A stretch of DNA of 64,000 nucleotides from Eledone cirrhosa (taxonomy: Eukaryota): contig OZ024740.1 in assembly GCA_964016885.1 (NCBI GenBank), positions 386,880,001 to 386,944,000 of the forward strand, read 5' to 3'. Every line of letters starts with the position of its first letter. Within the stretch, counting starts at the first letter, position 1. A model generated the notes under the pieces. That model worked only from the letters and a program-made list of their open reading frames with translations, was not told where the DNA came from and did no database searches. A program made the translations under genes and the position numbers. Below, piece after piece: positions 24,101 to 27,100 of this stretch.

Positions 24101-27100
24101 ATGCATACCAGTTACCCTTCTCCACACTACTGATGTTGTCAATTATATCGACCCCAGTGCTTGACCAGTACTGTATTTTATCAACCTTGAAAGGATAAAA
24201 GACAAAGTTGACCTTAGCAGGATTGAACTCAGAATGTAAATAGAATAAATAAATGTAATCTGGGTTTTTCTAATATTAATAATAATATTCGATTCGTTTG
24301 CAATTATGCAAACAGCCTCTCTTAAGCCATGTCAGTAGAATGAGCCCATCATTCTTGCTCTTGTGTTGGCATGTAAATAGAACTGCAGACACTAATATTT
24401 CTGGGTGATTACCCTTCATCAGTGCAGTTTACTGCACACCTGCCAACTGTCAGAGCTAGAGAAAATATATATTTTCTGAAATATACAGTGACTGATTGGC
24501 TTGATTTGCATATTAGCAGACTGGCTGATCAGTCAGCTCTGCATATTAGCAGACCCACTGATCAGTGGATCTGCTAATATGCAGAGCTGACTGATCAGCC
24601 AGTCTGCTAATATGCAAATCAAGCCGATCAGAATATATCATATATTTTCAAGCCGATCAGAATATATCATATATTTTCACTAGCTCTGACAGTTGGCAGG
24701 TGAGCAGTAAACTGCACTGATGAAGGGTAATCACCCAGAAACATTAGTGCCTGCAGTTCTGTTTACATGCCAACACAAGAGCAAGAATGAGGGGCTCATT
24801 CTACTGACATGGCTTAAAAGAGGCTGTTTGCATAATTGCAAATGAATTGAATATTATTATTAATATTCGTAAAACTCAGATTATATTTATTGTATTGATC
24901 CATGTAGAGTGATAACTATTTGTTAGTTATTAGAATAAATACAATTAATCATTTTGTTTCATGTCCTGATGATTGTGTCATAAATAATTATAATAATCAT
25001 CATTTTAACATCATCATCATCATCGTTTAACGTTAATCTTCCACGCTAGCATGGGTTAGACGGAAGTTGTCCCAATTTTAGGCAAGGTTGGTTGGGTGAC
25101 TGTGTCTCGCTCATATAGGACTATCTGGCAGGTTTTTTACGGCTGGATGCCCTTGCTAACACCAACCACTTTTACAGTGTGGACTGGGAACTTTTTACTG
25201 TTACCTACATGGCCATCTTTTTAAAAATTACTAGCATGGGTTTGACAGATCTGCAGTGTAACATCCCTCCACATCTTATCTCAATTCTATGTAATTTTAT
25301 CCATGAGGTTAAATAGTTTTTTTTCTGACTTAACTACTTGTAAAATTTCTTTGGTCTTGTCTTTATTGTAGCTAGATATTCTTTGTACCACAAGAAGTCT
25401 TTTGTAAACATGTAAATGTTTTCTAAGCCCAGAGAGAATTTATGAGTTGGTGAATAGCTGAAATTTCATTGAACTGATGTAGTGGTGAAATGAGAAAGTT
25501 TATAGATTATTGAACTGCCAGTTTGTAAGTCTTGAGCTAAAATCCTTAAGGGATTGGGGCCAGAGTCATCAAGCTTGCCTTCAAGCAGGTCTTGTCAGAA
25601 ACAACCATCTCCAATTTATTTTGTCCATAAAATTTGTTCAGCACTTCATTCCTTAGACATACTAACCACATGTCTGTAGTATCAGAGCTGTGATCTCTTA
25701 ATTTGAAGAAGTAACACCTCTTCTTGGAGTGATTGAGTAGAATTGCTTTTGTAACTTTACACAATTTACATGTGGTTAAAGTAATTACACACCTGCACAT
25801 TCACATAACCTCACTCCTGACTCATGTTTTATTCTAGATTTTACTTTGAATGCACAAAACAAACTTTAATCCTTTAGCATTTACATTATTCTATATATAC
25901 TATTGTTTTTGTGGTAAAGGCTTTATCTTACATAATCATCTCACATAATATTGAATCTATGAGATTTTGATGTAATTTATTTTGAGAACAATGCCTTAAC
26001 ACCAGTATGAGCGGCCAGTTATGGCCGGTTTGAACAGAAAGAGGCGAGAGAATTCTAGCTGGATACAGCCAGTTCAAATAGTAAAGGGTTAAATCCATTG
26101 ACTTCAAATTGGATTACACAGATGTTTTTTAATGTAATTTTTTTGTCTTTTATCTCAAGATAATGATGAACAGAATGCACAGGAGGATTTGGGGAGTACT
26201 CCTACAAGATCTACATATTTTGAAGACAAAATACAAATACCAGACTCAGACAATGTAAGTTCAGTTTTAGTAATTCAACTGTTTGTTATACATTTAAACA
26301 GCCTTCTCTTTGTTCTTCTTCTGGAAATTTGGATTTCAAATTTTTTGAATATTTTATTTTCTTCTGAAAATAAATGAAATAATCAACAAAAAAATATAAA
26401 TAAACCCAACTATTTTAAAAATAAAGTTTTAGTGTATAAAACATTATTTTTTATTCTTTATTTGTAGTCAATGTCATATATCTCTTGTTACCCATCCCTT
26501 GTTCACATTTTACAACCGTTGCCATAACAACTGTAGATAAATTATCATCAGTTATTTTCATTATTATCTTTATCATTGTTGTCATCATCAAAATTACCAT
26601 TATTGTTATTTTAATGACTGTCTTATCAGAATGAAGTTGGGTAGGCTTGCACTACAGTATCTTTCCATACATCAGAATCCTGTGTGATTTTGTTTGTGAG
26701 GCTCAGCTTTCCCAGATCTTCCTTGGTACATCTCTACTATAACCCATGTTGTATTAGTTAGTAGTACACTAGTAATTAACTTGGCAACGTTGTTGTTATG
26801 AAAATGAGCTATGTTATTCACAAGTTCTGGTGGGTACAGTCCATCTGACGGGCTTCCAAACAGTTTCTGTTTACACAATTTCAATTATGAGGCATGGATT
26901 GATCCAAGTCTATGGTAAGTGACACTTCCTCAAGATGCCATGCAGTGGGATGAAACCCAGGACCTAATGATTGTGAAGTGAACTTCTTAACTCAGTAACA
27001 ATTCTCAAAGTTGTTAAATAAAGTGTTCATCTGCCACCCAATTTAATGGATAATAACTGTGCCTGGAAACTGAGTAACAATATGAATAGAACCTGCCAAA

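What the first reader, a model, noticed from the sequence alone, without database searches (positions are those of the whole stretch)
24241..24941. Zero-spacer ~640-bp non-coding palindrome with two opposed hammerheads and an 11-bp TSD
Seen: the centre is at 24561/24562 with no loop, and there is no ORF. Hammerheads lie at 24381-24429 (-) and 24710-24758 (+). A tail spans 24892-24930. The direct repeat tagaataaata flanks the element, and a minus-strand SINE resumes on the far side, so it entered as a single unit. The centre has nested ctgatcag and gcatattagcaga repeats, octamer motifs (ATGCAAAT) and a 29-bp tandem duplication at ~24620-24677. The copy on the host sense strand has GUC changed to GCC, while the antisense copy keeps GUC. 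Inference: either strand would give a rod-like RNA with a hammerhead, and loss of the sense-strand site might reflect selection against cutting the host pre-mRNA (one case only).
Basis: partly seen in the sequence, partly recalled or inferred. Interest (0 to 1): 0.8.

Follow-up and report, generated by a model that had tools for sequence, protein, structure and literature searches.

The report
Head-to-head Penelope-type hammerhead repeat insertion
This 680-base mirror-image stretch is two partial copies of a common small non-coding repeat with a hammerhead (self-cutting RNA) motif, joined head to head, most likely by Penelope-like retrotransposon enzymes in a layout already described for them, and its two ribozyme motifs are predicted to be locked inactive inside the hairpin.

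Summary
The palindrome, opposed hammerheads, one-sided tail and 11-bp direct repeat are real. Each arm is a 5'-truncated copy of a 437-nt, circularly permuted, non-coding hammerhead repeat with at least 1,133 cores in this genome. Its copies mostly end in (TA)n (45 of 54) at two preferred 3' ends about 40 nt apart, and 16 of 54 carry a head-to-head inverted arm. That layout (inverted pLTR, tail, TSD, opposed hammerheads) is published for Penelope-like elements (PMC3846280, PMC8557442, PMC4209133). This exact centre occurs only here, so the palindrome is not itself a spreading unit. The selection idea is unsupported: GUC>GCC occurs in 4 of 98 other listed copies, the antisense copy has its own stem-III change, and in the rod the hammerhead fold costs 73-80 kcal/mol. 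SINE resumption was not confirmed and no autonomous partner was found. The scan noted such elements before on other DNA. Residual value: legible junctions that bear on how Penelope inverted ends form.

The parts
24241..24251 (+). Left copy of the 11-bp direct repeat (likely TSD); its last 4 nt, or 9 with a one-base gap, also match the element
24248..24565 (-). Left arm: monomer positions m78 to about m402 (the short 3'-end class), 94% to the family majority
24381..24429 (-). Type I hammerhead motif, GUC kept, C15.2>U at 24397 (U-G wobble in stem III)
24279..24419 (-). 47-codon frame from the ATG in the hammerhead core; no long ORF behind it in 150 scored matches
24504..24511 (-). Octamer ATGCAAAT, a family feature (m132)
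24558..24565 (.). Centre: self-complementary CTGATCAG (m78-85), shared by both arms
24558..24930 (+). Right arm: m78 to m437 (the long, tail-bearing 3'-end class), 92% to the family majority
24612..24619 (+). Octamer ATGCAAAT, a family feature (m132)
24619..24676 (+). Exact 29-bp tandem duplication, private to the right arm; both units carry a deletion of about 16 nt against the family
24710..24758 (+). Type I hammerhead motif with U16.1>C at 24750 (GUC>GCC)
24892..24930 (+). 39-nt tail between the two preferred 3' ends of the family
24931..24941 (+). Right copy of the 11-bp direct repeat; 6 of its first 7 nt match the continuation of the monomer (m1-7)
24153..24236 (-). Part of a SINE-like repeat forming the left flank
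26159..26254 (+). Nearest downstream exon of the likely host gene (Nramp family, + strand)

Best explanation
The element is one insertion of a 437-nt non-coding hammerhead repeat, present as two 5'-truncated arms joined head to head, and it was likely made in trans by the reverse transcriptase-endonuclease of a Penelope-like element (PLE). Shown: family membership, monomer size and circular permutation, two preferred 3' ends about 40 nt apart, (TA)n targets, frequent inverted 5' arms, private changes shared by both arms, microhomology of both TSD copies with the element, a join at the monomer's own palindromic octamer. Inferred: the enzyme nicked both strands 11 nt apart; each 3' end paired with a few bases of tandem or circular monomer RNA from one donor, one at the tail site (m437/1) and one at the short site (about m402); both cDNAs stopped in the central hairpin and annealed through CTGATCAG, and repair left a palindrome without spacer and a TSD (about 55% for this two-primer step against fold-back). 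The arms then drifted apart (18 private differences in 320 nt). The hammerhead would serve the family's monomer RNA; in this locus both copies are passengers, predicted to be sequestered in the rod.
For: At least 1,133 hammerhead cores, control 0; 2,676 first-look candidates. 437-nt monomer; partial tandems longer than one unit at L003, L027, L040, L049 and a two-hammerhead tandem at L111. 3' ends: 26 at m393-405 and 25 at m421-14 of 58 loci. (TA)n at the 3' end in 45 of 54; head-to-head arms in 16 of 54, and in 10 of 29 loci picked on the core pattern alone; both catalytic cores complete in 4 of 54; further opposed pairs at L062, L108, L109, L110. In L012, L024, L028, L043, L060 and L064 neither arm contains the other. 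Both window arms share 106T>G (0 of 32 other copies) and 142G>A (2 of 47). Compensatory changes in stem I (220/262: U-A 43, G-C 5) and in a 3' hairpin (298/302). A neighbouring coding PLE shows the same inverted layout (arms of 1,029 nt; RT match). Literature: head-to-head pLTRs with junction palindromes, 31-bp tail and 8-10-bp TSDs (PMC3846280); same layout and (TA)n bias (PMC8557442); opposed hammerheads 100-700 bp apart (PMC4209133); a PLE protein cuts and extends both strands from two start sites that delimit the tail (PMC11167929).
Against: No autonomous partner found: two coding PLE families share no sequence with the monomer, and 150 matches to the 47-codon frame have open frames of at most 141 aa. 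Outer ends of inverted arms cluster less well: 9 of 16 in the two classes against 51 of 58 for main arms, part of which were selected for reaching that region. Short perfect hairpins at the same octamer at L120 (12 bp) and L035 (6 bp) fit snap-back synthesis. PMC11167929 reports priming without homology to the cut DNA, whereas microhomology is seen here. The TSD overlaps element sequence and no empty site was seen. Pair-keeping and pair-breaking recurrent changes are about equal overall (19 wobble, 3 compensatory, 18 broken). Cleavage and expression were not tested.
Confidence: 0.82

Rival explanations
1. Same family and same enzyme, but the mirror half arose by fold-back: one cDNA primed at the tail site reached CTGATCAG, snapped back, copied itself and was captured at the second nick by microhomology near m402. 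Asymmetric junctions elsewhere would be later one-sided deletions of unstable palindromes.
For: Centre is exactly symmetric at a native palindrome; both arms share private changes; short hairpins at the same octamer at L120 and L035, and L118 also turns there (L118 and L120 were found with a pattern for this centre); self-priming was proposed for PLE junction palindromes (PMC3846280).
Against: Only the window copy has a long symmetric centre among the head-to-head junctions examined; six loci in which neither arm contains the other need an extra deletion each; the left end falls in a 3'-end class that is also used by single-arm copies; both strands are extended in vitro (PMC11167929).
Confidence: 0.3
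2. The palindrome is itself a mobile, MITE-like or rod-RNA unit with two working ribozymes.
For: Terminal inverted arms, a TSD and a very stable rod on both strands.
Against: Its centre occurs once in the genome at up to 1 mismatch; a looser pattern gave 22 sites, and of the 7 others mapped none was a long symmetric palindrome; other head-to-head copies have different junctions; the hammerhead fold costs 73-80 kcal/mol in the rod.
Confidence: 0.04
3. The sense-strand GUC>GCC change was selected to stop cleavage of the Nramp pre-mRNA.
For: The change is on the strand of the host gene; retrozymes are reported as depleted in introns of Xenopus (10.64898/2026.07.22.740005).
Against: GCC in 4 of 98 other listed copies; 10 of 28 copies have core changes; chance of a sense-only hit about 0.2; the antisense copy is also changed; the complementary arm is transcribed first and is predicted to sequester the sense motif.
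Confidence: 0.06
4. Assembly fold-back artefact.
For: Zero-spacer palindrome; no listed contig bridged the centre.
Against: Arms differ at 18 of 320 sites plus indels, a duplication and a tail; flanks are unrelated apart from the 11-mer; right junction is bridged by short-read contigs (may be the sample of the assembly); 16 of 54 other loci have the layout.
Confidence: 0.02

Closest known systems
Inverted-pLTR insertions of endonuclease-bearing Penelope-like elements (Pen2a_Av and relatives, PMC3846280; general layout in PMC8557442)
   Same: Head-to-head inverted terminal copy, palindrome or overlap at the junction, 30-40-nt tail on one side, TSD of about 10 bp, AT-rich or (TA)n targets, hammerhead in the repeat.
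   Different: No ORF at all; both arms start at the same position, so the whole insert is one palindrome; the monomer is 437 nt against pLTRs of about 190-220 nt in the rotifer; no coding partner identified.
Metazoan non-LTR retrozymes (PMC7229834; mussel 350-390 bp, axolotl 330-350 bp; PLE origin argued in 10.64898/2026.07.22.740005)
   Same: Non-coding, low-GC, highly self-paired monomer of a few hundred nt with one type I hammerhead, thousands of motifs, partial tandems, long TSD.
   Different: Copies seen are mostly truncated monomers and inverted pairs, with one two-hammerhead tandem (L111) and no long array; an unpaired A-A sits at the base of stem II; circular RNA and cleavage untested; inverted insertions were not found in the main text of PMC7229834 (0 hits for 'inverted').
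Dual hammerheads on opposite strands 100-700 bp apart in Schistosoma mansoni, ascribed to truncated PLEs (PMC4209133)
   Same: Two opposed hammerheads about 330 bp apart, no ORF between them.
   Different: Those are minimal hammerheads of a coding PLE family; here stem III has 3 bp and a tetraloop and the carrier is a non-coding family.
LINE-1 twin priming (recalled; a search for Penelope with 'twin priming' gave no paper on it)
   Same: Both target strands prime, cDNAs join by microhomology, TSD is kept.
   Different: In LINE-1 the inverted piece is an internal part of the same RNA; here both arms begin at the element's 3' start sites and duplicate each other.

Membership tests
PLE-type inverted insertion | 5'-truncated inverted copy adjacent to the 5' end, head to head | tested here: met
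   Window; 16 of 54 other loci
PLE-type inverted insertion | 30-40-nt tail on one side, between two preferred 3' ends | tested here: met
   39-nt tail; 26 + 25 of 58 ends in two classes
PLE-type inverted insertion | TSD of about 8-15 bp and AT-rich or microsatellite target | tested here: met
   11-bp repeat, 15 of 20,000 by chance; (TA)n in 45 of 54; empty site not seen
PLE-type inverted insertion | Hammerhead motif within the terminal repeat | tested here: met
   Core letters and stems I-III; below Rfam cut-off
Autonomous PLE | RT plus GIY-YIG ORF | tested here: not met
   Longest frame 66 codons; at most 141 aa in 150 matches
Non-autonomous PLE derivative | Sequence shared with the pLTR of a coding PLE | tested here: inconclusive
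   No match to two coding families; other families in the genome not screened
Metazoan non-LTR retrozyme | Non-coding monomer of about 150-450 nt with a type I hammerhead, GC under 50% | tested here: met
   437 nt, one hammerhead; region GC 0.36
Metazoan non-LTR retrozyme | Tandem organisation with two or more hammerheads | tested here: met
   For the family: L111, 698 nt colinear, cores 431 bp apart; not for this locus
Metazoan non-LTR retrozyme | Highly self-paired monomer RNA | tested here: met
   -179 against -105 +/- 6 kcal/mol in 40 shuffles; z -6.1 for the window's 3' part
Metazoan non-LTR retrozyme | Self-cleavage and circular RNA in vivo | not testable with these tools
   No raw RNA reads available; needs assay
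MITE | Many copies of one TIR-bounded unit with a fixed short TSD | tested here: not met
   Centre unique; ends and junctions vary between copies

The most novel reading that the evidence does not exclude
Because this copy landed in non-repetitive DNA instead of (TA)n, it keeps a full record of how PLE inverted ends form: both target strands pair with and prime on RNA from one donor at the two tail-defining sites, and the two cDNAs join through a self-complementary octamer that the family uses again and again. The family, with two octamer motifs per monomer, would be a self-promoting circular-RNA retrozyme that borrows a PLE enzyme without sharing its terminal repeat.
Probability: 0.3. Interest if true: 0.5.

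Novelty: new member of a known kind. Interest (0 to 1): 0.27.

Why it matters
As an object it is ordinary: a new family and a tidy example of a layout described for Penelope-like elements. Its use is as data. How PLEs make inverted ends and tails is called unresolved in PMC8557442 and PMC11167929, and a non-coding family with over a thousand copies, of which about 30% of those sampled carry inverted arms, gives many junctions on which two-primer synthesis and fold-back make different predictions. It also links retrozymes to PLE enzymes by insertion signature instead of by sequence. The idea of selection against intronic sense hammerheads is testable in this family, but this locus is a poor case for it.

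Tried and rejected
Rfam at gathering score over the window: 0 matches; the miRNA-family matches at the centre are below cut-off and reflect the hairpin only. Search for the same centre: only this locus; looser pattern 22 sites, mostly variants of the native sequence, among them a tandem cluster on C22. A direct genome count of opposed hammerhead pairs was not obtained; pairs were read from the listed coordinates, which show 100 of 193 and 150 scored matches. Autonomous partner: two coding PLE families and the 47-codon frame gave none. SINE resumption: not significant. Two different templates for the arms: considered because they differ at polymorphic sites m89 and m165; set aside because m165 lies in the right arm's deletion and the arms share 106G. 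Sequencing runs: no RNA holder listed; contigs showed no joint that skips the element and none across the centre, which proves nothing; the upstream exon of the host gene was not found in 6400-26300 among the pieces shown. Genome-wide strand bias: no gene annotation at hand. PMC308520 (newt satellite 2 promoter) is not held. A paper search on strand bias of intronic hammerheads listed 10 of 34 papers, none on this question by title.

Full report
Observation. The inverted repeat is real: outer arms of 223 nt at 94% and inner arms of 70 nt at 97% with no spacer, centred on CTGATCAG at 24558-24565. Both hammerhead motifs lie at the stated coordinates. They have the core CUGAUGA...GAAA, a 7-bp stem I, a 4-bp stem II with an unpaired A on each side of its base, and a 3-bp stem III with a tetraloop. 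Rfam gives no match at gathering score and only a weak Hammerhead_HH9 match. The 11-nt direct repeat is exact; 15 of 20,000 random AT-rich boundary pairs show one. The tail, the 29-bp duplication and the octamers are there. The claim that the SINE resumes is not confirmed, though one window copy aligns across the joined flanks at 69%.

The family. One arm finds 2,676 first-look candidates in the 3.0-Gb own genome, of which 40 were scored; a 25-nt core pattern with one mismatch has 598 + 535 matches and the control none. The host is probably an octopod; that rests on my recall of its repeats and on genome size, not on a call. From fetched loci I derived a 437-nt monomer that is circularly permuted: several copies run on through the end into the start, and L111 holds two hammerheads in direct tandem. 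The monomer folds far better than shuffles. It has a long central hairpin that contains the nested repeats and two octamers (6 of 20,000 letter shuffles have two; the two lie in the monomer's own 33-nt-period repeats, so they are not independent). Subfamily changes are compensatory at 220/262 in stem I and at 298/302, but over all recurrent changes 19 are wobble, 3 compensatory and 18 break a pair, so support for the fold from covariation is modest. Of 58 mapped loci, window included and duplicates dropped, 26 end at m393-405, 25 at m421-14 and 7 elsewhere; 28 of them were chosen by similarity to an arm that reaches this region. Of 54 non-window loci from the two search sets, 45 have (TA)n at the 3' end, 16 have a head-to-head inverted arm and 4 have both catalytic cores complete; in one of these 4 (L060) the inverted arm lacks the 5' strand of stem I. 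Four more opposed pairs were fetched on purpose (L062, L108-L110). The window copy is the longest symmetric case, and its centre is unique at up to one mismatch.

Mechanism. The window's right arm ends at the tail site and the left arm at the short site. Each TSD copy matches the element where it meets it: 6 of 7 nt on the right, 4 nt or 9 with a gap on the left. Both arms carry 106T>G, seen in 0 of 32 other copies, and 142G>A, 2 of 47, so they come from one donor or were converted against each other. They differ at 18 of 320 sites, two of them in the rearranged part. I infer staggered nicks 11 nt apart, priming from both 3' ends on monomer RNA, and a join of the two cDNAs at the self-complementary octamer. 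For this: six loci where neither arm contains the other, junction overlaps of 1-16 nt in most head-to-head loci, and both-strand extension in vitro (PMC11167929). Against it: only 9 of 16 inverted arms end in the two classes, and L120 and L035 have short perfect hairpins at the same octamer, as fold-back would give. The window locus alone cannot tell the two apart; I put two-primer synthesis at about 55% and fold-back at about 30%.

The hammerheads here. Forcing the active fold costs 5.6-6.9 kcal/mol in the monomer or a single arm, where the core is predicted to pair with the stem III strand, and 72.9 or 80.0 kcal/mol in the palindrome. On either strand the complementary arm is made first. Among the first 100 of 193 listed matches, leaving out the window's two, 4 of 98 have GCC and 8 of 98 have the C15.2>U change of the antisense copy. 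Ten of 28 copies not chosen on the core have a change in 14 core or stem III sites, and the chance of a sense-only hit is about 0.2. The selection idea therefore has no support here. The host gene is of the Nramp family on + (5 of 7 candidate exon frames match PF01566); a 2,332-nt contig of run X5, of unrecorded kind, covers exactly 26159-26254 with 366 nt before it, which makes an intronic position likely but not shown.

Partner. The window holds a young coding PLE at 52791-56428 with inverted arms of 1,029 nt and an older one near 32065-35332. Each has its own hammerhead-like motif, and neither shares sequence with the monomer. A 47-codon frame starts at the ATG in the hammerhead core, as the ORF of the anole element starts at its stem II (PMC11167929), but 150 scored matches of 12,083 candidates have open frames of 141 aa at most. 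Dependence on a PLE is thus inferred from the insertion signature only.

Comparison with what is known. It works like a non-autonomous PLE or metazoan retrozyme; it is not an autonomous PLE (no ORF) and not a MITE (centre unique, ends variable). Papers seen: PMC3846280, passages; PMC8557442, passages; PMC11167929, parts 1-2 of 4; PMC4209133, part 1 of 4; PMC7229834, passages; 10.64898/2026.07.22.740005, part 1 of 5 and passages; PMC2220036, one passage citing an snRNA-type promoter in newt satellite 2; that such promoters use an octamer is recalled. No supplements were read, and those of the preprint are closed; this family could be listed there or in Repbase, which I could not search. A search for hammerhead, retrozyme and octopus listed two papers, neither on this family by title or abstract start. 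Earlier notes of this scan describe like elements in other genomes; I saw them after forming my reading and did not check them; none matched this place or sequence.

Verdict. Real, explained, a new member of a known kind. Interest 0.27.

Noticed in passing
window 52791-56428: Young coding Penelope-like insertion with 1,029-nt inverted arms at 99%, RT match and a hammerhead-like motif at 52916 (-) and 56275 (+); 150 scored relatives at 95-97% amino-acid identity of 38,850 candidates, several in opposed pairs.
   Followed up: partly
window 32065-35332: Older Penelope-like remnant with 327-nt inverted arms at 96%; its relatives carry a different, variable hammerhead-like motif behind the ORF end.
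   Followed up: partly
L023, L025, L036, L039, L059, L062, L102, L118, L120: A SINE-like repeat is joined to the same position of the monomer (m363) in 9 of 77 loci by a strict pattern, with different left breakpoints: a hot spot for SINE insertion, or SINE-bearing donors that were copied on.
   Followed up: partly
G000:C22:8462522-8463069 and L112 (G000:C25): The monomer's central hairpin region has expanded into tandem arrays, with a period of about 65 bp on C22.
   Followed up: no
window 57806-57919: An old, 74%-identical remnant of the 3' part of the same or a related family.
   Followed up: no
window 35695-35731: Another hammerhead-like motif with a clear stem II, of a different repeat.
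   Followed up: no
window 35931-39237: Two RTE-like LINE copies (my reading of the ORFs) lie head to head with arms only 74-78% alike.
   Followed up: no
window 26159-60713: Nramp-family metal transporter gene on +, spread over more than 34 kb; CpG is depleted from about 15,000 on and is not depleted at 5,000-7,000 and 12,500-14,500, where a start could lie.
   Followed up: partly
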